Assembly (NCBI RefSeq): GCF_001677475.2
Contig: NZ_CP015229.1
Direction: 5' to 3' (one strand)
From: Escherichia coli
GTDB taxonomy: Bacteria > Pseudomonadota > Gammaproteobacteria > Enterobacterales > Enterobacteriaceae
Length of the DNA: 64,000 nucleotides
The position numbers were made by a program, and so were the translations under genes. How positions within the stretch are numbered: position 1 is the first letter of the stretch; every line of letters starts with the position of its first letter. The notes below the pieces were generated by a model. The model was given only the letters and a program-made list of their open reading frames with translations, searched no databases and was not told the origin of the DNA. Shown here piece after piece: positions 19,929 to 53,674 of the stretch.

Positions 19929-19937
19929 ATATTCAGA

Positions 19938-19975
19938 AAGCCCGAATCAGTAATGATTCGGGCTTTCGTCGTTTT
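19938..19975 (+). terminator. Rho-independent terminator after aspV
   Basis: aaagcccgaatc-agtaa-tgattcgggcttt followed by T-rich tract. Confidence 0.75.
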
Positions 19976-20059
19976 GGTGAAGCGAGAATTTTTCACTCCG
20001 CAAGTAAAACGAATATGATTTAAAAAATGGCCAGATAATATAAATTCTGGCCACTTCTG

Positions 20060-21106
20060 TTACTCCAGCGCATCCCATTTTTCCAGCAGTTCTACTGGAA
20101 TTTCATTTATTACCTCCGAGAAGCGTTTTCCGACCAGGCGTTCTGCCTGGCGCAGCAAAGGAATGGTCGGGCTGCTCGGTTCGCTGTGCTCAAACCAGCG
20201 ACGGATGACACGCAGGCGTTCCAGCGCGTCGTTCCGGTCGCGGATCTGCCGGGGTTCTGCGCCGGACATCGGTGATATTTCCTCCGCGATATGCACCGGT
20301 AGCGCAATCTGCTCTGATGATATCTCTTCAGTATGAACGATGGTGGTGCTCTCCGGCTGTTCAGCCACTGGTTGTGGCAGGATCTCCGGCGTGGTGGTCC
20401 GTATCGCTCCCGGCAACAGGGCCAGCAATTGTGTCAGACGGGATAGGTTCGGTGCCTGGTCATTCAGCGTTTCACGCGCATGGCGTTGCAGCCGCTCAGT
20501 GGTCTCTGCGGCCTGGCGAAAGGCATCCAGCGGCAGTGTGCCGCGCGCCTCCAGGTCGGCCAGTTGCTGGCGTACCGATTCTGGTGCCAGCGCATCCGCC
20601 GGGCGTGATGCAGACAGCGAACGCTCCACATCCCGTACCTGAAGGCGTATGGCAGCATTGTTTGACAGTGTAATGCCACGAATATCCGCTATTACGCCTT
20701 CATGGTCCAGCAACGCCGCCAGGGCGTTACTACGTGCCACTGCCGCCTCTTCGGCGGTGATATCTTCAGTCGCGAGCAGTTGAGGATGGATGGCGTTCGG
20801 GTACGTGGCGCACAACGTTTCCAGCAGCGCGAGCGCCTCCGCCAGTCCCCTGGCACCGGCCTGCTGGATACGGCAGCGCAGCAGGACAACCAGAATGCGG
20901 ATATCTTTGCTGCGCGTCAGCAGGCGGCAGGCATCCCGCTCAAGCTCCGCCCAGTTAATGGTTTCCGGCGTACTGACAAAATCGCCGTATTGCGCTTCTT
21001 CACGCGGTGCGGCGCGCGTGAACAGTAGCAGGTATTCCGGATCGTACTCCAGATCCGGGCCGCAGGGGCATTCTGCCGAAATTGGGTCAGACAGGGATGT
21101 ATCCAT
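20060..21106 (-). CDS. tssA: Type VI secretion protein TssA (ImpA-family N-terminal domain)
   Basis: 348-aa ORF at end of the tssE-F-G operon; size and context fit ImpA/TssA; family assignment from recall only. Confidence 0.6.
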   Translation of the reverse strand: MDTSLSDPISAECPCGPDLEYDPEYLLLFTRAAPREEAQYGDFVSTPETINWAELERDACRLLTRSKDIRILVVLLRCRIQQAGARGLAEALALLETLCATYPNAIHPQLLATEDITAEEAAVARSNALAALLDHEGVIADIRGITLSNNAAIRLQVRDVERSLSASRPADALAPESVRQQLADLEARGTLPLDAFRQAAETTERLQRHARETLNDQAPNLSRLTQLLALLPGAIRTTTPEILPQPVAEQPESTTIVHTEEISSEQIALPVHIAEEISPMSGAEPRQIRDRNDALERLRVIRRWFEHSEPSSPTIPLLRQAERLVGKRFSEVINEIPVELLEKWDALE

Positions 21107-21116
21107 TAAATTATCC

Positions 21117-22112
21117 TCAGTGCGCCAGGTAGTGTTCTGGTTCGAAAATCATGCCCGTCACCGGGTTTTCGTGCATGGCTTTACCCGCCCATGCGGTCCA
21201 GCCCAGTTGGTACGAACCACCGGTAACAGCCGGAGGGGCGGCGTGGGGCTTTAGCTGTAGCTCAATTTCCCAGCAGTATTCAAAACCGCTAAAGGAGCGG
21301 ACCAGTTCTGTCAGGACTGGCAGGTTATTGCCGCCAGGCAGAAAACGTCGGTAATCCTCCAGCGTCAGCGGGCCGATAACCAGCCGGAACTTATACTGCA
21401 TGTCCGGCACGGCCTGGCCGATGAGTGCACCGTTGCCAATAACGGAAGAGGGGGCTGGCATCCCCAGCCGGGTGATCTCATCGTCCGCCACGGCTATCCA
21501 GTGCAGGACATACTCCTGTATCCGGAAAGGTACACCGAAATAGTGCGCCAGCGTGGTGGCCAGACCGTCCGGATTGCGGGACTCACGCACCAGATGGGCC
21601 GATGCCGCCAGGCGAGCGTGATCCTGCAACGGGCTGTCGGCGCTCTCCCGCAAATCCTGCCCGCTGAGGCTGGCGATATAAAAGGCAAAACGGTCATGTT
21701 GCGGTTTATCCAGACCGCCCCCAGCGGACTGGGCGCTGCGCCATGCCTGGTAAAACTGCGTCAGCCAGCGGTGATGAAAAAGATCAGAAAAACGGGTTAG
21801 CGTCGGGTCTCTTCGGCTTTCAGTCCGGTTGTGCGCCAGTTCGGTGTAGTGCAGCGGCAGTGGACCGTTCGGCCCCCACAGCCCGAGACTGTACAAACTG
21901 ATATGCAGCCGCTCTTCCTGCCAGCTCACACTGGCGATTTCCCGTGGCGCAAAGGTCAGCGCGGGAGTTTGTCCGAGGCGAAATTTTTCCATCCGTGGTT
22001 GCCAGGTGTTGCCTGCCGGAACAGTACACAACTGCACATCCACGCGGCGCATCAGGTTCAGAAAACCGTAACGCCAGGGGGTTTCCTGCGCCTGAGTGAA
22101 ATCGTCGCTCAT
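21117..22112 (-). CDS. tssG: Type VI secretion baseplate protein TssG
   Basis: 331-aa ORF, 4-nt overlap with tssF; canonical tssE-tssF-tssG order. Confidence 0.8.
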   Translation of the reverse strand: MSDDFTQAQETPWRYGFLNLMRRVDVQLCTVPAGNTWQPRMEKFRLGQTPALTFAPREIASVSWQEERLHISLYSLGLWGPNGPLPLHYTELAHNRTESRRDPTLTRFSDLFHHRWLTQFYQAWRSAQSAGGGLDKPQHDRFAFYIASLSGQDLRESADSPLQDHARLAASAHLVRESRNPDGLATTLAHYFGVPFRIQEYVLHWIAVADDEITRLGMPAPSSVIGNGALIGQAVPDMQYKFRLVIGPLTLEDYRRFLPGGNNLPVLTELVRSFSGFEYCWEIELQLKPHAAPPAVTGGSYQLGWTAWAGKAMHENPVTGMIFEPEHYLAH

Positions 22113-23992
22113 ACGCTTCCCCGCTGTCCCGCCCTGGCAGGCCAGGTCATAATTTTGCCGCGCTGCATGCTGTGCAGCGTCATCTGCGAGAAGGTATTAA
22201 TGGAAACATGACGGGCGATATAGTGCTCCAACACCAGACCGAACAGATACGGACTGATACCGGAGAACCCCTCCTCATCCACGGTCAGTTCACAACTGAC
22301 GCCGCGCCCATAGACCAGCAGCCCGGAACCGGGCAGACGGCGGGTGACCGGGGTGGTGTTGCAGCCAATCAGGCTGCGCACCTGGCGCGACTGCGGACTG
22401 TCATGCGCCGGAATAAACAGGTTAAGCAGATCGCGCAGCGCCTGACCACCGGTACGGTGATCCAGATCGGCCAGCGGCAGATAGTTAAAGGATAACTGGC
22501 GGATCAACCGCCAGGCCATTTCACGTTCAGCCAGCGGAGGCTGCGGCGGACGCGGCGGACGGATAAGCCCCACGCCCGCCACCGGGATGGCCGCATCCAC
22601 GGTCAGATCGTCCCGTCCATTGCGGGCAATAAGACAGGGCAGATCGCGGTTGGTGACCATAGCCGTGATGGTGATATGGCGCAGATTTTCCGGGTATGGC
22701 GCTTCATACTGGTCAACCAGCGACAGGAACACTTCTGATCCTGTATAGGAGGTGCGGGTGCCATAGCGGCGGGCATTTTCCGACAACCGGCGCGGCTCCC
22801 GGCGCAGGGAAAAATAACGTCCGTGATTGCCTTCATCATTATTGCGGGTGTGGTAGAGCGGGCGAAAGGCCATCTTCCGTGTGGTGTCAGTTTCCAGCCC
22901 TTCCACTTCCTGGACCGAGAACACCTCATAATCCAGCGGATGGGTTCTGTCCACCACCAGATGCTGTTCCGTCGTGCTGTGCGTGACATCGATCCGGGCG
23001 GCGACTCGGGGAAACAGGTTGATAACCGGGGTACAGAACAGACTGAACTGTGCCGCGTTTGTCTGGTGGATCAGCCAGTCCGGCGGCAGGCGGTTCAGCA
23101 GGATAACAATCTCCGCCACTCCGCCTTCAATTTTCTGTAACCCGGCAGACAGGCCTGTCGGGGTGAAAAAAAAGAAGCGTTCCGGACAGGTAAAATATTC
23201 ATGTAGCAGGTTATGGCCGTGAAACACATTCCACGCCAGCGGCAACAGTCCCTGATCCGGATCCAGGCCTTCGTACATAACGGGCTGTTTCAGATTCACA
23301 TCCAGTGCGCCGTCAAAATGCCCCGGAATGCCAGCCAGGCTCGCGATGGCGCTGGTATGCAGTAGTTCGAACAGGTGTGAGGCCGTGCGCTCCTCGCCGC
23401 AGAGATAAAATGGTAGCTTGTTCAGCCCTGCAAGCTGACTGAACGTCAGTTCACCAAAGGTGCGCAGGGTAATACGCAGCGCACCAGCGACGTGAATGTT
23501 GGCTGGCAGGTAGCGGTGCAGGGCAGGCATATCCGGCGGCGCGGCGGTCAGGCGCACCTCTTCGATGGCAAGCGGCCACAGCGTCACATTCTGGCTGCTA
23601 CGAAACTGGCAGGCAGTACTTTCGCCTTCCGGAATGGCGGAAAAAAAGGCCGTGTTGCGCGGGACGGTGAATCCCTTCGCCAGATCGCCTTCTTCCGGAT
23701 CGGGATGAAGCTGCGCCACGCTCATTGAGGGCGTGGGTGTGACGTAATTGGGGCTGACCACTTCCAGCAGGCGCTGGGTGAAACGGGGGAATTCAGCGTC
23801 AATTTTTAGCTGCGTGCGGGCGGTCAGGAAGCTGAAGGCCTCGACCATTCGCTCCACATACGGATCGGCAATATCCGTTCCCTGCATACCCAGTCGGGCG
23901 GCGACTTTAGGATGACGGGCGGCAAATTCGGCTCCCGTTTCCCGCAGATAGCTCAGTTCGCGGTTGTAGTATTCCAGTAGCCGTGGATCCAT
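22109..23992 (-). CDS. tssF: Type VI secretion baseplate protein TssF
   Basis: 627-aa ORF; length and operon position. Confidence 0.85.
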   Translation of the reverse strand: MDPRLLEYYNRELSYLRETGAEFAARHPKVAARLGMQGTDIADPYVERMVEAFSFLTARTQLKIDAEFPRFTQRLLEVVSPNYVTPTPSMSVAQLHPDPEEGDLAKGFTVPRNTAFFSAIPEGESTACQFRSSQNVTLWPLAIEEVRLTAAPPDMPALHRYLPANIHVAGALRITLRTFGELTFSQLAGLNKLPFYLCGEERTASHLFELLHTSAIASLAGIPGHFDGALDVNLKQPVMYEGLDPDQGLLPLAWNVFHGHNLLHEYFTCPERFFFFTPTGLSAGLQKIEGGVAEIVILLNRLPPDWLIHQTNAAQFSLFCTPVINLFPRVAARIDVTHSTTEQHLVVDRTHPLDYEVFSVQEVEGLETDTTRKMAFRPLYHTRNNDEGNHGRYFSLRREPRRLSENARRYGTRTSYTGSEVFLSLVDQYEAPYPENLRHITITAMVTNRDLPCLIARNGRDDLTVDAAIPVAGVGLIRPPRPPQPPLAEREMAWRLIRQLSFNYLPLADLDHRTGGQALRDLLNLFIPAHDSPQSRQVRSLIGCNTTPVTRRLPGSGLLVYGRGVSCELTVDEEGFSGISPYLFGLVLEHYIARHVSINTFSQMTLHSMQRGKIMTWPARAGQRGSV

Positions 23993-24007
23993 CGGTTTCT
24001 CTCTGAA

Positions 24008-24502
24008 TTAAAAAAACGTAATGCGGCTCTGTTCCATATCCAGCGCGCTGCGTACCCGGAATGCCATCGGGTAGGGCTGCGTGAGGATCTCGCCGCGAAT
24101 TTCAAACTGTAATGTGTTATGGCCGCTCTGGTGGCGCTCATCCTGAAGTGGGATGATTTGCAGGGGGGACGCTTTCAGCCGGGGTTCAAACCGGATGATG
24201 GTACGCAAAATGGCCCTGTGAATATCGTCCCACTTGTGTTCATACAGAAAGCTGCCCGCCAGTGGCGGCAGGCCGTAGTTCAGTACGGACGCTGCCGCGT
24301 GCGGATAACGTGCAGCATCAATATCATCTTCATGGCTGACGGTGTTGAGCAGAAATGACAAATCCCGGCGAATGATCTCCTTAAGCTGAACCGGGCTGAC
24401 GCTGATATCGTGGTCGCGTTTCTGGTTTGGGGCATCATCACACAGGCGGTCAAACAGCGTGGGCAGCAGGTGATTGCCCGGACGCTGGCGGGAAGCGCTC
24501 AC
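24008..24502 (-). CDS. tssE: Type VI secretion baseplate protein TssE (phage gp25-like)
   Basis: 164-aa ORF; gp25/GPW-like size and sequence (LKEIIRRDLSFLLNT). Confidence 0.85.
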   Translation of the reverse strand: MSASRQRPGNHLLPTLFDRLCDDAPNQKRDHDISVSPVQLKEIIRRDLSFLLNTVSHEDDIDAARYPHAAASVLNYGLPPLAGSFLYEHKWDDIHRAILRTIIRFEPRLKASPLQIIPLQDERHQSGHNTLQFEIRGEILTQPYPMAFRVRSALDMEQSRITFF

Positions 24503-25329
24503 GCGTCGCTTCCTTCAGCGGTGTTAAAGGTACAGGTGGACAAATCCAGCAGGCTGATATCGCCGTGACCGGTGAGCCACACCCTCTGACCCAGCGCCTG
24601 TACCAGAGTCTCTCCCGGCCCGTCCTGCCAGACCGTTTTCCGGCACAGACGCAGGGAGTCGGCAGCCTTTTCAGAGCCGCTGTAGCGGGAAAACAGCCAG
24701 GCACTGTGTGTGTCGCCATTATTCAGTGTGACGTTGACGGGTTTCCAGATCAAATCGGTCAGATGCGCAGGCCGCGGCGATTTTAGCGAACAGATTTGTG
24801 AAAACGGCAACCAGATATATACTCCGCCCGCGATGAGTTCGAGTACCGGACCGGTACGGGAGTCGCTGTCGCTAATCCAGTCAAATGCGCCGCCATTCCA
24901 CTGTCCTGCAGTATCTGTTATGGCCTCAAGTGCGCGGCTGCGGTGGGCGTCAGCTTCCTGCGCTTCACCACGGGCGTTACAGGCGAGGGCGGTCAGCAGA
25001 TCCTCCATCCAGGCGGGCGGCGGGAGAATAAAATCGGGCCGCTGTTCTCCCTGAAAGCAGGCGTGGCGGTATATCTCACAGCGGATCAGCTCGCCAAATA
25101 CCTGCGCTTCGCGGGTATAATTTGCGTCCATCCGGGCGCATAGCTGGATCTGTTGCAGTGCCCGCGACCAGTCGCCTGCCACGCACAATAACTGAAACAG
25201 GCTGTGGCGGCGGGAGGCCTGCGCCGGGGGCATCCTGACCTGCTGCTCTGCCATCTGAATGCCCTCCGCCACGGAATAATCCCGCAGCAGCGCCGACAGG
25301 GTAGCCGGTAGCTCGTTATTGTTTGTCAT
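24499..25329 (-). CDS. tagJ: T6SS accessory protein TagJ (ImpE family)
   Basis: 276-aa ORF, 4-nt overlap with tssE; size and context fit ImpE/TagJ. Confidence 0.55.
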   Translation of the reverse strand: MTNNNELPATLSALLRDYSVAEGIQMAEQQVRMPPAQASRRHSLFQLLCVAGDWSRALQQIQLCARMDANYTREAQVFGELIRCEIYRHACFQGEQRPDFILPPPAWMEDLLTALACNARGEAQEADAHRSRALEAITDTAGQWNGGAFDWISDSDSRTGPVLELIAGGVYIWLPFSQICSLKSPRPAHLTDLIWKPVNVTLNNGDTHSAWLFSRYSGSEKAADSLRLCRKTVWQDGPGETLVQALGQRVWLTGHGDISLLDLSTCTFNTAEGSDA

Positions 25330-26230: not shown

Positions 26231-26562
26231 TGTGTATCACTGTGTAGAATGTTTCTTTCAAAAGAATAAGTTTTCTAAATTTTTAGATAAGCAATGCTGA
26301 TTAATTTACTTTATCAATATAAGTTTTCGCGGAAATATATAGTGGCGATTTTCAATTTAATATATTCATGGTATGTATGAAATTGGCTTGCTCTATTGAA
26401 TATCACCATGAAAAAGATACTACCTGCTATATTACATTGTGTTCTGTGATATGCATCATTGTTTCATTCGGCCTTTTTGATAATTCTATTAATTAGAAGT
26501 TTTAATCGATACAGTTATGTTTATGTATCATTTATATGTTCTTACATCATTAGGTGTAACAG

Positions 26563-29196
26563 ATGGACACTCCTGTTTCGCGCAGTGCACTGTATGGAAA
26601 GCTAACCAAATCTTTGTTTAGATCTTTGGAATCTGCGACGACGTTCTGTAAATTACGCGCTAATCCTTATGTCGAACTGACGCATTGGTTGCATCAGTTA
26701 ATACAACAACCAGAGAATGACATTCACAATGTGCTTCGACATTATCAAATAACATCTGCTGATGTTGAGAAGGCGTTAATTCAGCAATTGAATATATTGC
26801 CTGCCGGAGCGAGTGTAATTAACGATTTTTCCCATCATATCGATCTTTCTGTTGAAAAAGCCTGGATGTTGGCAAGTATCCGCTTTGGCGATCAAAAAAT
26901 TCGTAGTGGATGGTTATTACTTGCCTGGTTAACCACGCCAGAATTGTGTCGGGTGTTAAAAAATATTTGTGCGCCATTGGCAGAGCTGCCGGTAGATGAA
27001 CTATTAGATATTCTTCCGTCTTTAATCACTTCATCTCCTGAATTAACAGAAATGCCTTATGACTGCTCGGATTTAAATTCTGCAGTACCGGGGGAAGCTA
27101 GCCAGGTCTTTGCCGGCGAATCAACCGGAAGCAAATCCGCGCTGGCGAAATACTGCCAGGACATGACTGCGCTGGCCCGTGAAGGCAATATCGATCCGGT
27201 CACCGGTCGCGAACACGAGATCCGTACTATGACGGATATTCTGCTGCGCCGTCGCCAGAACAACCCGCTACTGACCGGCGAAGCGGGAGTCGGGAAAACG
27301 GCAGTGGTGGAAGGATTCGCGCTGGCGATTGCCGGGGGGGAAGTACCGCCTTCACTGCGTAACGTGCGGTTGCTGTCACTGGATGTTGGAGCGCTGCTGG
27401 CTGGGGCGTCCATGAAGGGTGAATTTGAATCCCGCCTGAAAGCGTTGCTAGAAGAGGCCGCGCGCTCGCCGCAGCCGGTAATCCTTTTTGTTGATGAAGT
27501 TCACACGCTGGTGGGCGCTGGTGGTACATCCGGTACGGGGGATGCTGCCAACCTGCTGAAACCGGCGCTGGCGCGTGGCACCCTGCGCACCATCGGCGCA
27601 ACCACCTGGAGCGAGTACAAACGCCATATCGAAAAGGATCCGGCGCTGACTCGGCGTTTTCAGGTATTGCAGGTTGCTGAGCCGGAAGAGGTTGCGGCTG
27701 TTGAGATGGTACGCGGGTTAGTCACCACGCTTGAAAAACACCATGACGTGCTGATCCTTGATGAGGCCGTGCGCGCCGCCGTACAGCTTTCTCACCGTTA
27801 CATTCCGGCCCGGCAACTACCGGATAAGGCCATCAGCCTGCTGGATACGGCGGCGGCCCGTGTAGCGCTGTCGCTGCATACCCCGCCTGCGAGAGTCCAG
27901 TATCTGCGCCAGCAGCTCAACGCTGCCGAACTGGAGCAGGTGTTGTTATTAAAGCAGGAAAAAATGGGTATCCGCTCGGAGCGGGGCGATGTACTGACGG
28001 CGCGGATTATATCGCTTAATGCCGATCTTTCTGACACCGAAGCGCGGTGGCAGCAGGAACTGGAGTTGGTTCGCAGTTTACAGGAGCAACGCGGCGCAGC
28101 GCCTGGCGAGCGCGACGAAATCACTCTACAACAGGCAGAAACGGCATTAAGAGGCTGGCAGGGTGAAAACCCCGTCGTGTACCCGGAAGTCAGTGCAACC
28201 GTGGTGGCAGAGATTGTCTCCGACTGGACCGGTATTCCCGCCGGACGGATGGTGAAAGATGAAGCCAGTCAGATACTGGAATTGCCCACCCGTTTGGCGC
28301 AGCGTGTTACCGGGCAGATGGATGCGTTGGCGCAGATTGGCGAGCGTATCCAGACCGCGCGGGCGGGTTTAGGTGACCCGCGTAAGCCTGTGGGTGTCTT
28401 TTTGCTGGCCGGGCCGTCCGGAGTAGGCAAGACTGAGACCGCGCTGGCACTGGTAGAAGCAATCTATGGCGGTGAACAGAATCTGATCACCATCAACATG
28501 AGCGAGTATCAGGAGTCTCACACAGTCTCCACTCTGAAAGGCGCGCCGCCCGGCTACGTCGGTTATGGCGAAGGCGGCGTGTTGACGGAAGCGGTACGCC
28601 GCCATCCCTGGAGCGTGGTATTGCTGGATGAAATTGAAAAAGCCCATCACGACGTCCACGAGCTGTTCTTCCAGGTGTTTGATAAGGGGGCGATGGAAGA
28701 TGGCGAAGGTGTCCACATCGATTTCAAAAATACCACGCTGTTGTTGACGACTAACGCGGGGGCGGAACTTATCAGCCAGCTCTGTGAGGATCCGGCGCTG
28801 ATGCCCGATTCGGCAGGGTTAAAAGAGGCGTTAATGCCGGAGTTACGTAAACACTTCCCGGCGGCTTTCCTGGGGCGTGTGACGGTTATTCCTTATTTAC
28901 CGCTGGATGAGACCGCGCGTGGTGTTATTGCCCGCCTGCATCTTGGCAGATTGATGGCTCGGATGGCGGAGCAGCATGGCGTTTCACTGGTGTATGGCGA
29001 TGAACTGATTACGCATATTGTGTCGCGCTGCCCGATGCACGAGACCGGCGCTCGTTTGCTCATCGGCTATATCGAACAACATATCCTCCCACAACTGTCC
29101 CGTTATTGGTTGCAGGCGATGACAGAGAAAACGGCCATCACGCAAATCCGCATTCGTGTTGATGAGGATGAACAGATTATTTTTGAAACGGATTAA
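26563..29196 (+). CDS. clpV: T6SS AAA+ ATPase ClpV (TssH)
   Basis: 877-aa ORF; two Walker A motifs (GEAGVGKTA, GPSGVGKTE), Clp N-domain. Confidence 0.92.
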   Translation: MDTPVSRSALYGKLTKSLFRSLESATTFCKLRANPYVELTHWLHQLIQQPENDIHNVLRHYQITSADVEKALIQQLNILPAGASVINDFSHHIDLSVEKAWMLASIRFGDQKIRSGWLLLAWLTTPELCRVLKNICAPLAELPVDELLDILPSLITSSPELTEMPYDCSDLNSAVPGEASQVFAGESTGSKSALAKYCQDMTALAREGNIDPVTGREHEIRTMTDILLRRRQNNPLLTGEAGVGKTAVVEGFALAIAGGEVPPSLRNVRLLSLDVGALLAGASMKGEFESRLKALLEEAARSPQPVILFVDEVHTLVGAGGTSGTGDAANLLKPALARGTLRTIGATTWSEYKRHIEKDPALTRRFQVLQVAEPEEVAAVEMVRGLVTTLEKHHDVLILDEAVRAAVQLSHRYIPARQLPDKAISLLDTAAARVALSLHTPPARVQYLRQQLNAAELEQVLLLKQEKMGIRSERGDVLTARIISLNADLSDTEARWQQELELVRSLQEQRGAAPGERDEITLQQAETALRGWQGENPVVYPEVSATVVAEIVSDWTGIPAGRMVKDEASQILELPTRLAQRVTGQMDALAQIGERIQTARAGLGDPRKPVGVFLLAGPSGVGKTETALALVEAIYGGEQNLITINMSEYQESHTVSTLKGAPPGYVGYGEGGVLTEAVRRHPWSVVLLDEIEKAHHDVHELFFQVFDKGAMEDGEGVHIDFKNTTLLLTTNAGAELISQLCEDPALMPDSAGLKEALMPELRKHFPAAFLGRVTVIPYLPLDETARGVIARLHLGRLMARMAEQHGVSLVYGDELITHIVSRCPMHETGARLLIGYIEQHILPQLSRYWLQAMTEKTAITQIRIRVDEDEQIIFETD

Positions 29197-29208: not shown

Positions 29209-29773
29209 ATGGCAAAAGAATTAAGTGGCGCACTGTGGTTCAGTCGCTTTCCTGGAAGTTCTTCCACTAATGATTTGCAGGGGACTTTTCGTGCATCGGT
29301 AGATAATTTTTTGCGCGCGCATTGGTAATGCGCGTGCAAGGGTCAGTATCTCTGCAACATATCGCCCTCCCGCCAGAGCATATCTCATGCACTGGTCATG
29401 GTTGATTGCTCATGAAATCGTTCAGGCAAAAAACGTCCCGGCGATGGAGGGGGTGGATATTGAGTGGGTTCACCCGACTGAGCAAGCCTCGCTTGAAGCG
29501 GCGCAGGCTATGGTTACGGCCTATGGTATTAATAATCTGAATGTCGCGCCTGCACTGAGCTCCAACCATACACGCGGTACTGCGATAGATATGAATATCA
29601 GTTGGAGCGGAACATTAACAATTGCGGGGAGCAATGGTCAGAATGTTGCAATTAATACACTACCTCGAACCGGAATGAATGCCCAGCTTCAGGCGGTAGG
29701 TCTGGGTTACGGCGTCAGAAAATTTGTTGGCGGCAATACAGATATACCTCACTGGTCAATTGATGGACATTAA
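29209..29773 (+). pseudogene. Frameshifted peptidase M15 (VanY-like zinc D-Ala-D-Ala carboxypeptidase fold) candidate T6SS effector
   Basis: ATG 29209 with ggag RBS opens a 39-codon frame ending taa 29326..29328; peptidase frame continues in +1 from 29303 (track ORF 29387..29773) with SxHxxGxAxD (SNHTRGTAID) and distal His; T6 run 29307..29312 and (GC)4 are the likely slip site. Confidence 0.6.
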
Positions 29774-37061: not shown

Positions 37062-37069
37062 ATTAATAA

Positions 37070-45044: not shown

Positions 45045-45427
45045 AATTAATCTGTATTATAGTGTTCTTTCTTTCAATAAATTACGTAATCACAGCAAAT
45101 GTTTTCGAGCCTTCTGTAGTTTTTCAATCTCCCAGGTATTATGAGGAAAATGATATACAGAATGGAAATAACGATGCTTTTTTTGTGAAAAAATACGGCC
45201 CGCCTGTTCATGAGTTCATGAAGCCACGATATAAGTTTGCCGGTGAATATTATATCGGCTTGAATCAGACTTATCGCATCACAAACCCTGAATTTAAAGA
45301 TGTGCCTATTAAAGAAATGTTCTGGAATCTGCAAGAGGATTTAAATCTTACATGCTGGTTCCATTATAAAGACGGGCAGTGGCGGGTTATTTCTTATATT
45401 TTTTGGCCACCAGGGGCTAAATTTTAA
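45041..45427 (+). CDS. Secreted small protein, candidate immunity for the metallopeptidase
   Basis: 128-aa ORF, ATGA-coupled; N-terminal signal peptide (MKLICIIVFFLSINYVITANVF). Confidence 0.45.
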   Translation: MKLICIIVFFLSINYVITANVFEPSVVFQSPRYYEENDIQNGNNDAFFVKKYGPPVHEFMKPRYKFAGEYYIGLNQTYRITNPEFKDVPIKEMFWNLQEDLNLTCWFHYKDGQWRVISYIFWPPGAKF

Positions 45428-45451: not shown

Positions 45452-47665
45452 ATGAGTTTTGTATCTACGGGTAATAAACCAGTTGGAAACGGTAGACCCG
45501 TCATCACCACACCACCAATAGCTCGCGAAAGTGGCGGTATGAGCGCAAGTTCAGCCGCAACCGATGTAGCTGATGCAGCCGAACAGATGGCAGAACAGGC
45601 AGTTGCAGATCTATTTGGTGCGCTTCCAGAACCGTCAGGACTGGTTAAAGCTGCAGTAGCTGCTGCGCAGGCCGCCGCCGCCGCGGCAGGGATCTCGGAT
45701 ATGGCTGGTGCAGCTCAGGATGCGGCGGCATCGCTTGCTGCCGCTGGTTCGGGGGCGCATAACGTCACAGTAAGTGGTAGTGCGGTGCCGGCGCAGATGC
45801 TGCTGTTCGCAGGTATGAATGGTTCGGAAGGGCTTGGGAATCTGTTTTCCTATACAGTACAGCTTAAAACGCCTGACACCCTGAACCTCGGATATGTCTC
45901 CCCTGCTGCCAATCTGCCGCTCAAACCGATGGTGGGCAAAGACCTGTGCGTCAATATTGAACTGGAGGGCGGCGGCAAACGGCATATCAGCGGGCTGGTG
46001 ACGGCTGCGAGGGTAGTCGGTCACGAGGGGCGCTCGGTCACGTATGAATTGCGCATTGAACCGTGGTTGAAGCTGCTGACCCACACCAGCGACTACAAAG
46101 CCTTCCAGAACAAAACCGTGGTGGATATTCTCGATGAAGTCCTGGCTGAATATTCCTTTCCGGTGGAAAAGCGGCTGGTGGAAAATTATCCGCCCCGCGC
46201 CTGGCAGGTGCAGTATGGTGAAACCGATTTTGATTTCATCCAGCGCCTGATGCAGGAATGGGGTATCTACTGGTGGTTTGAGCACAGCGAGAACAGCCAC
46301 ACGCTGGTACTGGCTGATGCCATCAATGGTCATAAAACGTGCCCGGACTCGCCGCTGGTAGAGTGGCACCAGGAAGGACTGAAGCTCGATAAGGAATTTA
46401 TCCACACCATTACGGCCAGTGAGAGGCTGCGTACTGGAAAGTGGGTGCTGGACGATTTTGATTTTATGAAGCCGCGTTCACTGCTGAAAAGTACCGTGGC
46501 TAATCCGCGTGATACCGGTCATGCTGAATATGAGCATTACGAATGGCCTGGTGATTACTTCACTATGGGGGAAGGCGAGATGCTGACGCGCATTCGTATG
46601 GAAGCGCAGCGCAGCCCTGGCAGCCGGGTTGGAGGGGCGGGGAATATCCGCACCCTCATGACTGGTTACACCTTTACGTTGATGAATCATCCGACGGCGG
46701 AGGTCAACCAGGAATATCTGCTGGTGCAGACCACACTGTTTTTACGGGACAATGCGCAGTACAGCGGCCAGGACCAGCATTTTACCTATGTCACCACGTT
46801 CGAACTGCACCCTACCAGTGAAGTCTACCGCCCACAGCGAACCCTGAGCAAACCTCATACCAAAGGCCCGCAGAGCGCCATCGTCACCGGTCCGGCGGGG
46901 CAGGAAATCTGGACGGATAAATATGGCCGGGTGAAGGTGCAGTTTGGCTGGGATCGTTATGGTAACAATGACGAAAACAGCTCCTGCTGGGTCCGTGTTA
47001 GCTATCCGTGGGCGGGAAAAGGATTCGGCATGATCCAGATCCCGCGTATTGGCCAGGAAGTGCTGGTGGATTTCAAAAATGGTGACCCGGATTTACCCAT
47101 CATCGTGGGGCGTACCTATAACCAGGACACGATGCCGCCGTGGGGATTGCCTGGCATGGCGTCGCAGAGCGGGATATTCAGCCATTCGTTACAGGGGGGG
47201 CCGACCAACGGAAACATGCTGCGCTTTGATGACAAAACGGGGGCGGAAGAGGTGAAGTTCCATGCGGAAAAAGACCTCAATACCACAGTAAAAAACAATG
47301 AAACCCACACGGTCATGGTCGATCGCACAAAAACCATTGTCAAAAATGAAACCATCAGCGTGGGAGAAGACCGTAATGCCACCATCACAAACAATGATGG
47401 GCTTTCCGTCAAACTAGCTCAAACCATCAATGTCGGGACGACATATCGTCTGGACGTTGGCGAGCAATTTACCCTTCGCTGCGGCAATGCAGCGCTTGTA
47501 TTACACAAGGATGGCTCGATTGAGTTTTGCGGAAAACAACTTTTACTGCACGCCAGCGATGTGATGCAACTCATTGGCAGTGGTATTGATATGAATCCGG
47601 ATGGCGGAAAAGCCATTACTGCGAATGATATTGCCCCAGTACCCACTCCGGATGCTTCTGAATAA
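45452..47665 (+). CDS. vgrG: T6SS spike protein VgrG (TssI) with ~100-aa Ala-rich N-terminal extension
   Basis: 737-aa ORF; RBS aaggag before ATG 45452; canonical VgrG region begins near residue 105 ([34 protein letters not shown]). Confidence 0.88.
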
Positions 47666-47688
47666 AAAATAATAAAAGGATTTTATCT

Positions 47689-48132
47689 ATGACCAGCCTT
47701 TACCGTATTCAGGAGGGCAGCTTTGCCCTGCCTGAAACTTTTCTTGATCGCACCGTCAATATCTTCGTCCCGTCGGGCAATGAGAGGGCAACTCCCAGTC
47801 TGAATATTTCCCGCGACACGCTCAGGCCCGAGGAAAACCTGACCACCTACATTGACCGCCAGATAGCCTTGATGAAAAAAAACCTGGGTCAGCACCGGGT
47901 ACTTTCGCGGGGAACGGCAGTGGCGGGAACTGGCGAAGCTGCCATGGCAGGTGAACAAATTCTCGCAACTCACCGTTCTGGAAAAACAGAAGTGTATCAG
48001 CGTCAGGCCGGGTTTATCACCGGGCCAGGAAAGGTTCTGGTGTTAACCCTGACCTGTCAACGTCCTTTTGATGAGCATACTGACCAGCTATGGACTGTCT
48101 GGTTGACCAGTTTTCAGCCCGCTAAGAGTTAA
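47689..48132 (+). CDS. eagR: DUF1795-family Eag chaperone (EagR-like) for the downstream prePAAR-Rhs effector
   Basis: 147-aa ORF between vgrG and rhs; size and position typical of Eag chaperones. Confidence 0.6.
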
Positions 48133-48137
48133 AATAA

Positions 48138-52623
<4,486 letters not shown>

Positions 52624-52628
52624 TGCCG

Positions 52629-52669
52629 AAAAAAGCCGGGAACAATATTAAATCTTCCCGGCTTTTTAT
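52629..52669. terminator. Bidirectional Rho-independent terminator between rhs-immunity operon and symE-like gene
   Basis: aaaaagccgggaa…ttcccggcttttt inverted repeat with flanking A/T runs. Confidence 0.75.
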
Positions 52670-52672
52670 TAT

Positions 52673-52966
52673 TTAATTATCGTTCAGCATACTAAACATC
52701 CCGTCACGCATCCCCTTAACCGCCTGTTTGACCTGGTAAAGTTCCCTGCGCAGTTCCTGTACTTCGTTGTTATCCGCTAGCAGGATCAGGCAACCTTCCG
52801 AGATCTTCACGGTAACGCCCGTGCCGATCTCAAATCCCGCTTCTCTCAGCCATTTGGCGCTGATTTTGATCACCGGCGTGTCGCTGCGGTTGGGCAGATA
52901 GCCCACGGTACAGTGGCGCTGTGTTTTGGAAATGGTGACTTCTGGCGTAATATCGTGTTCAGCCAT
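52673..52966 (-). CDS. SymE-family (AbrB-fold) type I toxin-like protein
   Basis: 97-aa ORF; RHCTVGY…ISAKWLREAGFEIGTGVTVKISEGCLILLA parallels recalled SymE (RHVTVGY…[31 protein letters not shown]). Confidence 0.6.
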   Translation of the reverse strand: MAEHDITPEVTISKTQRHCTVGYLPNRSDTPVIKISAKWLREAGFEIGTGVTVKISEGCLILLADNNEVQELRRELYQVKQAVKGMRDGMFSMLNDN

Positions 52967-53166
52967 GATTAACTACCTTGATTAGTTGCTTGTGGTGAGC
53001 GGTGATTAAGGGGGGGGCAGCCCCAGGGAAAGATCACATAACGTTGTTTTTTGCACTAAATAATTCGCACTATATATTCAATAATTGAGTAATTCCTTAT
53101 TACTCAAAACTGTTTTTCACAGCTTATATATAATCAAATACTCCTTACATAAATAAGGAGAACAAA

Positions 53167-53610
53167 ATGGTACTTAAAAAATGATGGAGCATATTTCTAT
53201 TATCCCTGATTACAGACAAGCCTAGAAAGTGGAACATAATTTGTCAGATATTCTACTGTTGACTATTTGTGCCGTCATTTTCGGGGCTGAAGGATAGGAA
53301 GATATAGAGGATTTTGGAGAAACACATCTCGATTTTTTGAAGCAATATGGTCATTTTAAAAATGGCATCCCCGTTCACGATTCCATTGCCAGAGTTGGAT
53401 CCTGTATCAGTCCTGCAAAATTTTAACTGGATGCGTGACTGCCATTCCTCAAATGATAAAGACATTATCGCAATTGATGGAAAAACGCTCCGGCACTCTT
53501 ATGATAAGAGTCGCCGCAAGGGAGCGATTCATGTCATTAGTGCGTTCTCAACTATGCACAGTCTGAGCCTTGGGCAGATTAAGACAGATGAGAAATCCAA
53601 TGAGATTACA
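53167..53610 (+). pseudogene. yafF: Truncated, mutated ISAs1-family (H-repeat) transposase remnant, yafF-like
   Basis: Matches recalled YhhI/H-rpt N-terminus (…MEHISIIPDYRQA…ICAVI…[13 protein letters not shown]…NWMRDCHSS…[33 protein letters not shown]…[10 protein letters not shown]) but with TGG->TAG stops, frameshifts and truncation after ~150 codons. Confidence 0.8.
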
Positions 53611-53674
53611 GTGACCGCGCGTCAGTCCTTGCGGAGGGCGTCTACCCAGCCCCTTCCCTAAAAACAACGCCCAC

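What the first reader, a model, noticed from the sequence alone, without database searches (positions are those of the whole stretch)
19929..53660. ~33.7-kb T6SS island at tRNA-Asp aspV carrying six AT-rich candidate effector/immunity cassettes
Everything between aspV and the H-repeat remnant next to yafV is absent from K-12, which has yafT-ykfM-yafU here. It encodes all 13 T6SS core genes plus tagJ, an FHA-like gene, tagF and eagR, with no integrase. Six AT-rich cassettes are wedged between GC-richer core genes, each a no-signal-peptide protein paired with a small signal-peptide or membrane protein, usually start/stop-coupled. Six cassettes in one locus is dense.
Basis: partly seen in the sequence, partly recalled or inferred. 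Interest (0 to 1): 0.65.

Follow-up and report, generated by a model that had tools for sequence, protein, structure and literature searches.

The report
SPI-6-type T6SS island, tssL broken
This is a 33.7-kb bacterial "toxin-injecting weapon" gene island (a type VI secretion system of the Salmonella SPI-6 kind) inserted beside a tRNA gene in E. coli, carrying six toxin/antidote gene pairs. It is a well-understood kind of system, and in this strain a stop codon in an essential part has probably disabled it.

Summary
K-12 homology stops 7 nt after aspV (window 19935) and resumes at 53650. The 33.7 kb between encodes homologues of TssA-M plus TagJ, TagK, a TagF-domain protein, EagR and a prePAAR-PAAR-Rhs, with no integrase and no att repeats. 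Six AT-rich cassettes (GC 0.32-0.49, against 0.49-0.65 for core genes) sit in fixed intergenic slots.

It is the E. coli counterpart of the Salmonella SPI-6 T6SS: subclass i3, like the Pseudomonas aeruginosa H1-T6SS, at the same aspV site and with the same variable-region layout. The cassettes are:
- a ChiX/M15-like endopeptidase
- Tae2/Tai2
- an SLT/lysozyme-like glycosidase with a 2-TM partner
- Rap1a/Tae4 (Ssp1-like)
- a metzincin with a signal-peptide partner
- an Rhs-HYD1 ADP-ribosyltransferase-like toxin with a cytoplasmic partner

tssL has an in-frame TGA (36462-36464; CGA or CGG in five relatives). The first effector has a +1 frameshift (29321). Both recur in an independent assembly, so the apparatus is probably dead while all six immunity genes stay intact.

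Six cassettes is normal for this family in E. coli. The type occurs in about 2% of complete E. coli genomes and is absent from a 2025 E. coli T6SS census, which counted only i1, i2 and i4b. Ordinary kind, modest interest.

The parts
19852..19928 (+). aspV tRNA-Asp(GTC), left border of the island
   Evidence: ARAGORN and Rfam tRNA at 67.7 bits. K-12 homology ends at 19935.
20060..21106 (-). tssA (short, 348 aa)
   Evidence: TIGR03363 E 1.2e-42, below the curated cut-off. RefSeq names the orthologue TssA.
21117..22112 (-). tssG
   Evidence: TIGR03347 E 9e-100.
22109..23992 (-). tssF
   Evidence: TIGR03359 E 2e-185.
24008..24502 (-). tssE
   Evidence: TIGR03357 E 3e-18.
24499..25329 (-). tagJ (ImpE family accessory gene)
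   Evidence: Pfam ImpE PF07024 E 1.4e-39.
   Evidence: NF033418 T6SS_TagK E 1.4e-166. No FHA Pfam hit.
26231..26562 (.). AT-rich divergent intergenic region between tagK and tssH; presumed promoters
   Evidence: GC 0.32-0.36 in the composition profile. The promoter scan was no better than shuffles. The promoter role is inferred.
26563..29196 (+). tssH (clpV)
   Evidence: TIGR03345 at 1215 bits.
29209..29773 (+). Cassette 1 effector pseudogene: LAS/M15 (ChiX-like) peptidoglycan endopeptidase, +1 A at 29321
   Evidence: Alignment to the intact 187-aa orthologue in L001. Weak Peptidase_M15_4 hit (i-E 1.4) over the SxHxxGxAxD motif. The same frameshift is in GCA_002516285.1.
29776..30066 (+). Cassette 1 immunity candidate (96 aa, signal peptide)
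   Evidence: N-terminal hydrophobic segment; 2-nt gap from the effector.
30128..30673 (+). tssB
   Evidence: TIGR03358 E 2e-56.
30698..32212 (+). tssC
   Evidence: TIGR03355 E 1e-214. Best solved structure is 5n8n (P. aeruginosa H1 sheath, identified from my own knowledge) at 801 bits, against V. cholerae VipB at 376.
32263..32670 (+). Cassette 2 effector: Tae2 amidase (BPSL0067 family)
   Evidence: PDB 6win 'Type 6 secretion amidase effector 2' E 4e-32. NF033857 E 8e-50.
32683..33135 (+). Cassette 2 immunity: Tai2 (STY0301 family, signal peptide)
   Evidence: NF042415 E 2.4e-18. N-terminal hydrophobic segment.
33315..33800 (+). hcp (tssD)
   Evidence: TIGR03344 E 1e-16. Pfam T6SS_HCP on the identical gene in L005.
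33868..34401 (+). tssJ lipoprotein
   Evidence: TIGR03352 E 2e-37.
34405..35748 (+). tssK
   Evidence: TIGR03353 E 5e-120.
35745..37061 (+). tssL, long form, interrupted by in-frame TGA at 36462-36464 (codon 240). It splits into a 239-aa DotU domain and a 198-aa TM + OmpA-like part.
   Evidence: DotU hit on the first part and type_VI_ompA hit on the second. The codon is CGA in L001, L004, L007 and L009 and CGG in L006. The exact 239-aa product is found in independent assemblies.
37069..37755 (+). Cassette 3 effector (E3, 228 aa): SLT/goose-lysozyme-like glycan-strand hydrolase candidate
   Evidence: 323 homologues with no Pfam domain. Invariant E73, S118-M-Q120 and Y189-N190-x-G192. The model's best PDB matches are Tse3, MltE and g-type lysozyme.
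37752..38039 (+). Cassette 3 immunity candidate (I3, 95 aa, two TM segments)
   Evidence: Hydropathy; 4-nt overlap with E3.
38039..41905 (+). tssM
   Evidence: TIGR03348 at 1052 bits.
42152..42847 (+). Cassette 4 immunity: tandem Rap1a domains, signal peptide
   Evidence: Pfam Rap1a twice, E 1e-9 and 3e-8.
42844..43320 (+). Cassette 4 effector: Tae4-family amidase, closest to Serratia Ssp1
   Evidence: Pfam Tae4 E 5e-14. PDB 4bi3 Ssp1 E 2e-57.
43506..44276 (+). TagF-domain gene
   Evidence: TIGR03373 E 4e-10. Pfam TagF_N E 5e-7.
44343..45044 (+). Cassette 5 effector (E5, 233 aa): metzincin-type zinc peptidase candidate
   Evidence: Invariant H172-E173-x-x-H176...D183 and near-invariant M199. 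Model pLDDT 92. Top PDB matches are MMP-11, karilysin and ADAMs. Relatives weakly hit Reprolysin/M64, and a few carry LysM or PG_binding_1.
45041..45427 (+). Cassette 5 immunity candidate (I5, 128 aa, signal peptide)
   Evidence: Hydropathy; 4-nt overlap with E5.
45452..47665 (+). vgrG (tssI)
   Evidence: TIGR03361 E 1e-166.
47689..48132 (+). eagR chaperone (DUF1795/DcrB family)
   Evidence: Pfam DcrB E 1.5e-32.
48153..52295 (+). Cassette 6 effector: prePAAR-PAAR-Rhs (1380 aa). The AT-rich C-terminal toxin (51903-52295) resembles a HYD1 ADP-ribosyltransferase.
   Evidence: prePAAR_I E 8e-24 and PAAR E 5e-16. YD repeats and Rhs core. Tox-ART-HYD1 i-E 0.0012, with 17 of 18 homologues at <=0.1. 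H9, Y34 and E83 are conserved. CT GC 0.344.
52288..52623 (+). Cassette 6 immunity candidate (I6, 111 aa, no signal peptide or TM)
   Evidence: 8-nt overlap with the rhs stop; GC 0.321. The same protein is common in E. albertii.
52673..52966 (-). SymE-like type I toxin gene (passenger next to the H-repeat fragment)
   Evidence: Pfam SymE_toxin E 5.6e-13. NF010128 E 1.7e-12, below the cut-off.
53024..53661 (+). ISAs1/H-repeat transposase fragment, right border next to yafV
   Evidence: 86% blastn identity to the ISEc1 transposase gene of L001. Weak DDE_Tnp_1 hit. K-12 homology resumes at 53650.

Best explanation
Window 19936-53649 is a horizontally acquired antibacterial type VI secretion island of subclass i3. 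It is the E. coli counterpart of the Salmonella SPI-6 T6SS and is inserted at the same tRNA-Asp gene (aspV).

**Layout.** A conserved, GC-rich structural scaffold is interrupted at fixed intergenic slots by six AT-rich effector/immunity cassettes. The scaffold comprises tssA-G-F-E-tagJ-tagK on one strand. On the other strand it comprises tssH, tssBC, hcp, tssJKLM, tagF, vgrG, eagR and the rhs core. Different strains and genera carry different cassettes in the same slots, presumably swapped by homologous recombination through the flanking core genes.

**Periplasmic effectors.** Five cassettes encode enzymes that would attack a rival's peptidoglycan:
- a ChiX/M15-like endopeptidase
- the Tae2 amidase
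- an SLT/lysozyme-like glycosidase
- an Ssp1-like Tae4 amidase
- a metzincin peptidase

Each has a periplasm- or membrane-directed immunity protein.

**Cytoplasmic effector.** The sixth is a prePAAR-PAAR-Rhs protein. By analogy with the family, it would be loaded onto VgrG with the EagR chaperone. Its C-terminal toxin looks like a HYD1-type ADP-ribosyltransferase and is paired with a cytoplasmic immunity protein.

**State in this strain.** A CGA-to-TGA change at codon 240 of tssL cuts the cytoplasmic DotU domain off from its membrane anchor and peptidoglycan-binding domain, and the first effector is frameshifted. The machine is therefore most likely non-functional. The six intact immunity genes would still protect against attack by relatives.

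**Shown:** gene identities, boundaries, composition, both lesions, and slot variability. **Inferred:** loss of firing, the enzymatic targets of E3, E5 and the Rhs toxin, and the recombination mechanism.
For: **Boundaries and K-12 comparison:**

**Core and accessory families:**

**Subclass i3:**
- TssC scores 801 bits against 5n8n (the P. aeruginosa H1 sheath), against 376 for VipB.
- TagJ is present.
- TssA is the short form.

**Link to SPI-6:**
- Same aspV site and the same VR1-VR3 layout (PMC2907695; PMC10469887).
- A Salmonella enterica contig carries E3/I3, Rap1a/Tae4, Tge2/Tgi2, Tlde1, vgrG, eagR and a prePAAR-Rhs.
- Its VgrG is 83%, EagR 73% and Rhs N-terminus 87% identical to the window's.

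**Cassettes:**
- Tae2
- Tae4/Ssp1 plus Rap1a
- E3 SLT motifs and fold
- E5 HExxH/Met-turn and fold
- Rhs-CT HYD1
- signal peptides, TM segments and gene coupling
- GC contrast

**Slot variability:**
- E. coli loci L001, L003, L004, L006-L011 and L022-L024.
- Escherichia sp., Enterobacter and Citrobacter loci.

**Lesions:**
- tssL TGA and E1 frameshift.
- Both are reproduced in an independent draft assembly.
Against: - No experiment shows that the split TssL is inactive. The codon after the TGA is ATG, so both halves could be made.
- The recurrence of the lesions in 'independent' assemblies may reflect one clone sequenced several times.
- Subclass assignment rests on similarity ranking to solved sheath structures and on accessory gene content, not on a formal phylogeny.
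- No full SPI-6 core sequence from Salmonella was compared here. Only vgrG-eagR-rhs and fragments of tssM and tagF were.
- E1, E3, E5 and the Rhs toxin are assigned from weak profile or fold matches plus motifs.
- No immunity function was tested.
- No recombination breakpoints were mapped statistically.
Confidence: 0.85

Rival explanations
1. The island is a fully working T6SS. The TGA at tssL codon 240 is followed directly by ATG. Translation restarts there, and the soluble DotU fragment and the TM + OmpA-like fragment reassemble. Alternatively, another T6SS in the genome supplies TssL.
For: - The sequence reads ...GGG TGA ATG CGG..., so a coupled restart is possible.
- Every other core gene has the same length as its intact orthologues.
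- Five effector genes and all six immunity genes are intact.
Against: - The break lies upstream of the only TM helix (VPVWLSAGIALLVMLTLFGLY), so the DotU domain loses its anchor.
- From established knowledge, TssL is a tail-anchored inner-membrane core subunit whose anchor is needed for function.
- Two other E. coli lineages carry independent tssL nonsense codons, at codons 129 and 139.
- Ten of the 13 loci examined (the window and 12 RefSeq loci) have a lesion in a core gene. This looks like decay, not a tolerated split.
- The same locus also has a frameshifted effector.
- TssL proteins of other E. coli T6SS subclasses are too divergent for their tssBC even to match by blastn, so cross-complementation is unlikely.
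Confidence: 0.12
2. The interval is not an acquired island. It is ancestral Escherichia chromosome that K-12 and most strains have lost by deletion. The AT-rich cassettes are the only foreign DNA.
For: - There is no integrase and no att repeats.
- The island's mean GC (0.525) is close to that of the flanks (0.49-0.52).
- K-12 keeps an H-repeat fragment (yafF) at the same junction, so it has itself lost something here.
Against: - tssBC of this type is found in only 117 of 5426 complete E. coli genomes.
- Other T6SS types are described at aspV in other E. coli (PMC5363993, PMC2941450, PMC2808357).
- Five of the E. coli loci I examined carry the same island at a different tRNA-Asp, directly after rrf, with integrase fragments beside it.
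- Core proteins are 80-97% identical in Enterobacter and Citrobacter, and the homologous island sits at aspV in Salmonella (PMC2907695). This fits transfer between genera.
- Core genes are markedly GC-richer (0.57) than the flanks.
Confidence: 0.05
3. The two lesions (tssL TGA and the E1 +1 A) are assembly or sequencing errors, and the locus is intact in the living strain.
For: - Each lesion is a single-base event.
- I found no complete RefSeq record for the source genome among the hits.
Against: - The exact 239-aa TssL fragment, together with the 39-aa + 128-aa split of E1, is called on a contig of the separate assembly GCA_002516285.1. The fragment is on four contigs in all, from NCBI and Logan assemblies.
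- The 128-aa E1 fragment is on 10 contigs.
- The TGA is a substitution, not a homopolymer indel.
Confidence: 0.04

Closest known systems
Salmonella enterica SPI-6 T6SS (subtype i3; formerly SCI)
   Same: - Inserted at tRNA-Asp aspV.
- All 13 core genes plus tagJ, tagK, tagF and eagR, in the same order.
- Effector/immunity modules lie in variable regions: tssH-tssB and after tssC (VR1), after tssM (VR2), and after vgrG (VR3).
- Shared effector families: Tae2, Tae4, a ChiX-like L-Ala-D-Glu endopeptidase remnant, 243-aa Reprolysin/M64-like peptidases, and PAAR-Rhs-Tox-ART-HYD1 (PMC2907695; PMC10469887).
- A Salmonella contig shares E3/I3 at 77% and 64%, VgrG at 83% and the Rhs N-terminus at 87% identity.
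   Different: - The host is E. coli.
- There are no saf or tcf fimbrial operons.
- There is an extra occupied slot between tssL and tssM.
- The Tae4 member is Ssp1/Rap1a-like rather than the S. Typhimurium Tae4/Tai4 type.
- tssL is a pseudogene here.
- It holds six modules, against the 3-4 effectors per genome usual for Salmonella genomes with one T6SS cluster (PMC12994826).
Pseudomonas aeruginosa H1-T6SS (prototype of subclass i3)
   Same: - TssC is most similar to the solved H1 sheath, 5n8n (801 bits).
- TagJ/ImpE and TagF are present.
- TssA is the short form.
- It is antibacterial, with periplasmic peptidoglycan-targeting effectors. E3's best fold match is the H1 effector Tse3.
   Different: - No Fha/PpkA/PppA phosphorylation-pathway genes are detected in the island.
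- The effector set differs.
- Effectors are embedded inside the structural cluster.
Serratia marcescens Db10 T6SS effectors Ssp1/Rap1a
   Same: - The window's Tae4-family protein matches Ssp1 at E 2e-57.
- The adjacent gene has two Rap1a domains.
   Different: - The immunity protein is a tandem duplication (231 aa).
- The immunity gene lies upstream of the effector.
- The genomic slot is different.
The E. coli T6SSs already catalogued (T6SS1/i2, T6SS2/i1, T6SS3/i4b), several also at aspV
   Same: - The same chromosomal hot spot, aspV, is used in EHEC OI#7, LF82 PAI I and EAEC 042 (PMC5363993, PMC2941450, PMC2808357).
- The same general machine.
   Different: - tssBC of the window matches only 117 of 5426 genomes even with sensitive blastn, so it is none of the common E. 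coli types.
- A census of 131,610 genomes lists only i1, i2 and i4b for E. coli (PMC12282107).

Membership tests
Type VI secretion system, subclass i3 (H1-T6SS / SPI-6 type) | Homologues of all 13 core components TssA-TssM in one cluster | tested here: met
   NCBIfam hits for every component. TssA is below its curated cut-off but scores E 1e-42. tssL is present but interrupted by a stop codon.
Type VI secretion system, subclass i3 (H1-T6SS / SPI-6 type) | Sheath proteins cluster with i3 references rather than with i1, i2 or i4b | tested here: inconclusive
   TssC scores 801 bits to 5n8n (the P. aeruginosa H1 sheath, from my own knowledge), against 376-383 for VipB and 5urw TssC. There is no blastn match to the common E. 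coli T6SS types. This is a similarity ranking; no tree with SecReT6 references was built.
Type VI secretion system, subclass i3 (H1-T6SS / SPI-6 type) | Accessory gene tagJ (ImpE), associated with H1-like systems (established knowledge) | tested here: met
   Pfam ImpE E 1.4e-39.
Type VI secretion system, subclass i3 (H1-T6SS / SPI-6 type) | Functional secretion (Hcp export, contact-dependent killing) | not testable with these tools
   Needs wet-lab assays. The tssL nonsense codon predicts a negative result.
SPI-6-type island | Insertion at tRNA-Asp aspV | tested here: met
   The SPI-6 site is given in PMC2907695.
SPI-6-type island | Conserved gene order with variable regions after tssH/tssC, after tssM and after vgrG | tested here: met
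   Window gene map compared with the description in PMC10469887. The same slots vary among E. coli, Enterobacter and Citrobacter loci.
SPI-6-type island | Sequence similarity to Salmonella SPI-6 proteins | tested here: met
   Against S. enterica contig L020: VgrG 83%, EagR 73%, Rhs N-terminus 87%, tssM and tagF fragments 79-84%, E3 77%. The remaining core genes were not compared with Salmonella.
SPI-6-type island | saf and tcf fimbrial operons in the island (as in S. enterica) | tested here: not met
   No such ORFs lie between rhs and yafV. The homology therefore concerns the T6SS part only.
Integrase-mobilised tRNA genomic island | Tyrosine integrase next to the tRNA, and direct repeats of the tRNA 3' end at the far border | tested here: not met
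   No integrase ORF. No repeat of 14 nt or more of aspV within 19929-56000, and no flanking repeats. Integrase fragments do flank the same island at another tRNA-Asp in other strains.
Tae2/Tai2 amidase effector-immunity pair | Sequence membership of both partners | tested here: met
   PDB 6win E 4e-32. BPSL0067_fam at 167.9 bits against a cut-off of 27, and STY0301_fam at 66.3 against 22. Catalytic residues were not inspected.
Tae4 (Ssp1) / Rap1a effector-immunity pair | Sequence membership of both partners | tested here: met
   Pfam Tae4 E 5e-14. Ssp1 4bi3 E 2e-57. Rap1a twice.
prePAAR-PAAR-Rhs effector with Eag chaperone | prePAAR motif, PAAR domain, YD repeats, Rhs core with the DPxGL cleavage motif, and an upstream DUF1795 gene | tested here: met
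   '...[11 protein letters not shown]...' precedes the toxin.
Tox-ART-HYD1 ADP-ribosyltransferase toxins | Significant match to PF15633 and a conserved H-Y-E-type triad | tested here: inconclusive
   i-E 0.0012 for the query; 4 of 18 homologues at <=0.001 and 17 of 18 at <=0.1. H9 is nearly invariant, and Y34 and E83 are invariant. No structure or activity data.
Family 1 lytic transglycosylase / goose-lysozyme fold (E3) | Catalytic Glu motif, GLMQ-like motif and AYNAG-like motif; SLT fold | tested here: inconclusive
   Invariant E73 (CWIEVGG), S118-M-Q120 and Y189-N190-R-G192. Foldseek top hits are Tse3, MltE and g-type lysozyme, but with E about 1e-2, TM 0.48 and model pLDDT 75. No Pfam or PDB sequence hit. 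The motif definitions come from established knowledge of the family.
Metzincin zinc peptidases (E5) | HExxHxxG motif, a third ligand, a Met-turn and the metzincin fold | tested here: inconclusive
   HEAGHVLGYLDDD with invariant H172, E173, H176 and D183 and near-invariant M199. Model pLDDT 92. Best PDB hits are MMP-11 (E 5.7e-4), karilysin and ADAMs, but TM is only 0.3-0.35. The query has no significant Pfam hit; relatives weakly hit Reprolysin_2/4 and M64.
LAS / peptidase M15 (ChiX-like) endopeptidases (E1) | SxHxxGxAxD and HxH zinc motifs; profile match | tested here: inconclusive
   The motifs SNHTRGTAIDM and HWSIDGH are visible. Pfam Peptidase_M15_4 scores only i-E 1.4, and there is no PDB sequence hit. 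The gene is frameshifted here.

The most novel reading that the evidence does not exclude
The most novel reading has three parts:
1. E. coli carries a fourth T6SS subclass, a SPI-6-like i3 system. It is present in about 2% of complete genomes, sits at either of two tRNA-Asp genes, and is missing from the species' standard T6SS classification.
2. This system is being inactivated repeatedly and independently, with three separate tssL nonsense codons plus IS, frameshift and deletion lesions, while at least in this window its immunity genes stay intact.
3. Two of its cargo families have not been characterised experimentally as T6SS effectors. One is the SLT-like E3 with a two-TM partner, found widely across Proteobacteria with no Pfam family. 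The other is the snapalysin-like metzincin E5.
Probability: 0.45. Interest if true: 0.45.

Novelty: new member of a known kind. Interest (0 to 1): 0.3.

Why it matters
**For annotation.** The locus can be labelled with confidence as an SPI-6-type T6SS with a defined effector set. It should be flagged as probably non-functional.

**For E. coli biology.**
- Surveys that type E. coli T6SSs only as i1, i2 or i4b will miss this system.
- In my small sample, 10 of 13 loci have a lesion in a core gene.
- The loci nevertheless still carry effector/immunity cassettes, and in this window all six immunity genes are intact. Such strains may be 'disarmed but shielded', which bears on how T6SS warfare shapes gut E. 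coli populations.

**For enzymology.** E3 and E5 are cheap, testable candidates for new peptidoglycan-targeting T6SS effectors.

None of this changes how T6SSs are understood to work.

Tried and rejected
- **ARAGORN 'tRNA-His'.** ARAGORN called a 94-nt tRNA-His at 22233-22326 (-) inside tssF. Rfam does not support it, so I treat it as a false positive.
- **att-type repeats.** I looked for repeats of aspV and for repeats flanking the island or the cassettes. Only chance-level matches appeared.
- **Promoters and terminators.** The scan of the tagK-tssH intergenic region was no better than shuffles.
- **Pfam on concatenated cassette proteins.** No hit for E1, I1, E3, I3, E5, I5 or I6. Tae2 and Tai2 also gave no Pfam hit.
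- **Direct PDB sequence searches.** Nothing for E1, E3 or E5. A PDB profile search for the E5 family gave only E > 0.3 zincin hits.
- **FHA identity for the tagK gene.** Rejected: no FHA Pfam hit, and a strong TagK model hit.
- **E3 as the 'TseH-like + DUF4229' module of Salmonella VR2.** Not supported. The E3 fold and motifs are SLT/lysozyme-like, not NlpC/P60.
- **The search for related loci on genome contigs with TssK.** It returned only very close relatives and distant Thiomonas-type clusters, and no Salmonella locus. I made the Salmonella comparison through an exact-protein look-up instead.
- **Literature.** My searches found no paper describing an i3 T6SS in E. coli. That is absence from the held library, not proof that none exists.

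Full report

ARAGORN and Rfam place tRNA-Asp(GTC) at 19852-19928. The upstream genes are rrnH, a first tRNA-Asp, dkgB and onward to dnaQ, so this copy is aspV.

blastn against K-12 MG1655 shows 98.3% identity up to window 19935. It then shows nothing until 53650, where the yafV-ivy-fadE homology resumes. K-12 has yafT, ykfM, yafU and yafF in the gap.

There is no integrase ORF. No copy of the aspV 3' end occurs in or after the island, and no repeats flank the island or the cassettes. The right border is an ISAs1/H-repeat transposase fragment. K-12's yafF keeps a piece of the same element at that junction.

**2. The structural genes**

NCBIfam models identify most of the cluster:
- On the minus strand: TssA (short form), TssG, TssF, TssE and TagK.
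- On the plus strand: TssH, TssB, TssC, Hcp, TssJ, TssK, TssL (long form), TssM, a TagF-domain protein, VgrG and an Rhs protein.

Pfam adds TagJ (ImpE), EagR (DcrB/DUF1795), and prePAAR plus PAAR at the Rhs N-terminus.

**3.

*tssL.* The gene (35745-37061) has an in-frame TGA at 36462-36464. The same codon is CGA in four relatives and CGG in a fifth. This splits the 438-aa protein in two:
- a 239-aa DotU domain;
- a 198-aa piece that holds the only TM helix and the OmpA-like domain.

*Cassette 1 effector.* The gene (29209-29773) has one extra A at 29321 relative to the intact 187-aa orthologue.

Both lesions are also present in a separate draft assembly, GCA_002516285.1. The exact truncated products occur on several contigs, so a one-off sequencing error is unlikely. 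All other core genes have the same lengths as their intact orthologues.

**4. The six cassettes**

Per-gene GC is 0.32-0.49 for the 12 cassette genes and 0.49-0.65 for the 18 core genes, with no overlap (p = 2.7e-6).

| Cassette | Slot | Effector | Partner | Evidence |
|---|---|---|---|---|
| 1 | tssH-tssB | LAS/M15-type motifs (SNHTRGTAIDM...HWSIDGH); frameshifted | 96 aa, signal peptide | |
| 2 | tssC-hcp | Tae2 (PDB 6win E 4e-32; BPSL0067 family) | Tai2 (STY0301 family), signal peptide | |
| 3 | tssL-tssM | E3, 228 aa, SLT/lysozyme-like | I3, 95 aa, two TM segments | |
| 4 | tssM-tagF | Tae4-family amidase, closest to Serratia Ssp1 (E 2e-57) | tandem Rap1a domains; the immunity gene comes first | |
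| 5 | tagF-vgrG | E5, 233 aa, metzincin-like | I5, 128 aa, signal peptide | |
| 6 | Rhs C-terminus | 130-aa AT-rich toxin after DPLGL, HYD1 ART-like | I6, 111 aa, no export signal | |

*E3.* The family has over 300 homologues at 50-60% identity in Burkholderia, Rhodanobacter, Yersinia, Methylobacter and others, with no Pfam domain. Its invariant residues reproduce the three signature motifs of family 1 lytic transglycosylases: E73; S118-M-Q120; and Y189-N190-x-G192. The AlphaFold model (pLDDT 75) best matches the H1-T6SS muramidase Tse3, then MltE and goose-type lysozymes. The scores are weak but consistent.

*E5.* It carries HEAGHVLGYLDDD. H172, E173, H176 and D183 are invariant, and a methionine is nearly invariant. 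The model is confident (pLDDT 92), and its top PDB matches are MMP-11, karilysin and ADAMs. The family has 189 clusters at 50% identity. Some members carry LysM or PG_binding_1 domains, and some weakly hit Reprolysin or M64 profiles.

*Rhs toxin.* It matches Tox-ART-HYD1 at i-E 0.0012, and 17 of 18 homologues match at <=0.1. His, Tyr and Glu positions are conserved.

Four of the six pairs overlap start to stop. The other two are 2 and 12 nt apart.

**5. What kind of T6SS is it?**

TssC is far closer to 5n8n, the solved P. aeruginosa H1-T6SS sheath, than to V. cholerae VipB or other sheaths (801 against 376 bits). Together with TagJ and the short TssA, this points to subclass i3.

The Salmonella SPI-6 T6SS shares the following:
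- It is subtype i3 (PMC12994826) and sits at aspV (PMC2907695).
- It has variable regions after tssH/tssC, after tssM and after vgrG.
- Those regions carry Tae2, Tae4, Tge2, Tlde1 and a ChiX-like L-Ala-D-Glu endopeptidase remnant.
- They also carry 243-aa Reprolysin/M64-like candidates with signal-peptide partners, and PAAR-Rhs-Tox-ART-HYD1 (PMC10469887).

A Salmonella enterica contig found through the E3 homologue carries E3/I3, Rap1a/Tae4, Tge2/Tgi2, Tlde1, vgrG, eagR and a prePAAR-Rhs. Its VgrG is 83%, EagR 73% and Rhs N-terminus 87% identical to the window's.

The same gene order occurs in an unnamed Escherichia species, in E. coli E69, in an Enterobacter and in Citrobacter amalonaticus. 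Core proteins there are 80-99% identical. In three of these four the Rap1a/Tae4 pair occupies the tssL-tssM slot instead.

**6. Distribution in E. coli**

- Even with sensitive blastn, tssBC of this type is found in 117 of 5426 complete genomes, always on the chromosome. It is therefore none of the common E. coli T6SSs.
- A 2025 census of 131,610 genomes lists only i1, i2 and i4b for the species (PMC12282107).
- Earlier papers describe other T6SS types at aspV (PMC5363993, PMC2941450, PMC2808357).
- I found no paper on an i3 system in E. coli in the held library, although RefSeq annotates the genes routinely.
- The E5/I5 cassette matches 34 complete genomes at 87-88% identity. E3/I3 matches two by megablast. 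The Rhs toxin/I6 pair matches none, though I6 is common in E. albertii.

**7. Comparison of 13 loci (the window plus 12 RefSeq loci)**

The slots are the same, but their contents differ:
- tssC-hcp: Tae2/Tai2 or Tae4/Tai4.
- tssL-tssM: Tlde1 or E3.
- tssM-tagF: Rap1a/Tae4 or nothing.
- tagF-vgrG: Tge2/Tgi2, other pairs, or E5/I5.
- After vgrG: different Rhs toxins.

Four loci that I counted hold about six modules, so six is the norm here.

Ten of the 13 loci have a lesion in at least one core gene:
- The window (tssL).
- JNEC-KY177, VCSW7, M18 and A31 (vgrG only).
- LHM10-1 (tagJ, tssL).
- A20 (hcp::IS21, tssM).
- RM9387 (tssL, tssM).
- 2012C-4221 (tssH, vgrG).
- GmM077 (tssM through rhs deleted).

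E189, R32_14_1F and 23CRST046 look intact. Three independent tssL nonsense codons exist, at codons 129, 139 and 240. The sample is small and not random, and vgrG lesions may be covered by other vgrG copies.

In five of these strains the island follows the tRNA-Asp directly after rrf, with integrase fragments and a higA gene beside it. In A31 it ends at a dkgB fragment. The island has therefore used two tRNA-Asp sites.

**8. Mechanism, and what is inferred**

*Shown:* gene content, boundaries, composition, both lesions, slot variability and cross-genus conservation.

*Inferred from established T6SS knowledge:*
- TssJLM forms the membrane complex, and TssEFGK plus VgrG the baseplate.
- TssBC contracts around the Hcp tube, and ClpV recycles the sheath.
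- The five small effectors travel as Hcp or VgrG cargo to the rival's periplasm.
- EagR shields the prePAAR-Rhs transmembrane helices while it is loaded onto VgrG.
- The Rhs toxin acts in the cytoplasm.

*Also inferred:*
- Losing the TssL anchor abolishes firing (my estimate is about 0.75-0.8).
- The retained immunity genes still protect the cell.
- Cassettes are exchanged by homologous recombination through the conserved neighbouring genes. No mobile-element signatures were found at the slots.
- The AT-rich tagK-tssH region holds divergent promoters.

**9. Verdict**

The locus is a member of a well-studied kind (the SPI-6-type i3 T6SS), is probably inactivated in this strain, and is not unusually dense.

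Three things give it modest residual interest:
- This T6SS subclass is under-recognised in E. coli.
- It appears to decay repeatedly across lineages.
- Two of its effector families (E3 and E5) are untested.

Noticed in passing
L007, L009, L022, L023, L024 (E. coli RM9387, E189, M18, 23CRST046, A31): In these strains the same i3 T6SS island follows the tRNA-Asp directly after rrf, not aspV. Between the tRNA and tssA lie P4-type integrase fragments, an IS3 element and a higA gene. In A31 the island ends at an ISAs1 element and a dkgB fragment. The island has therefore used two tRNA-Asp sites, and one version keeps integrase remnants.
   Followed up: partly
L001, L003, L004, L006, L007, L008, L011, L022, L024, plus window 36462-36464: Ten of the 13 E. 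coli i3 loci examined have a lesion in at least one core gene: nonsense, frameshift, IS insertion, truncation or deletion. tssL carries three independent nonsense codons (codon 129 in LHM10-1, 139 in RM9387, 240 in the window). This suggests recurrent decay of the system in E. coli. The sample is small and not random.
   Followed up: partly
window 52673-52966 (-): A 97-aa SymE-like type I toxin gene (Pfam SymE_toxin E 5.6e-13) lies between the Rhs immunity gene and the H-repeat fragment. Rfam gave no SymR-type RNA hit at gathering threshold.
   Followed up: partly
window 22233-22326 (-): ARAGORN calls a 94-nt 'tRNA-His' inside tssF. Rfam finds no tRNA there, so it is a false positive.
   Followed up: yes
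L012, L014, L015 (Escherichia sp. E1V33, Enterobacter sp. ENT03, Citrobacter amalonaticus): A Rap1a/Tae4 pair 46-60% identical to the window's sits in the tssL-tssM slot in these genomes. In the window it sits in the tssM-tagF slot. The same module type can therefore occupy different slots of the conserved scaffold.
   Followed up: partly
window 53560-53661 and L002 14300-14440 (K-12 yafF): The window and K-12 share a short H-repeat-derived stretch (GCGTCAGTCCTTGCGG) just before yafV. K-12's small aspV-yafV segment therefore looks like a remnant of an earlier Rhs/H-repeat-bearing insertion.
   Followed up: partly
L020 (Salmonella enterica contig DAIZZA010000122.1): E3/I3 homologues lie directly after an ISAs1-type transposase gene, and the locus retains only fragments of tssM and tagF. 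This appears to be a truncated SPI-6 that keeps its VR2/VR3 effector modules.
   Followed up: no
window 51903-52623: The Rhs C-terminal toxin and its immunity gene match none of the 5426 complete E. coli genomes by megablast. The 111-aa immunity protein is nevertheless common in Escherichia albertii (178 contigs). Toxin homologues cap Rhs proteins in Salmonella, Cronobacter, Pectobacterium, Photorhabdus and Pseudomonas.
   Followed up: partly
window 14667-14863: There is a break of about 195 bp in the alignment to K-12 between yafD and the yafE-like methyltransferase gene. Relatives of the window annotate a 771-nt gene where K-12 has the 624-nt yafE.
   Followed up: no
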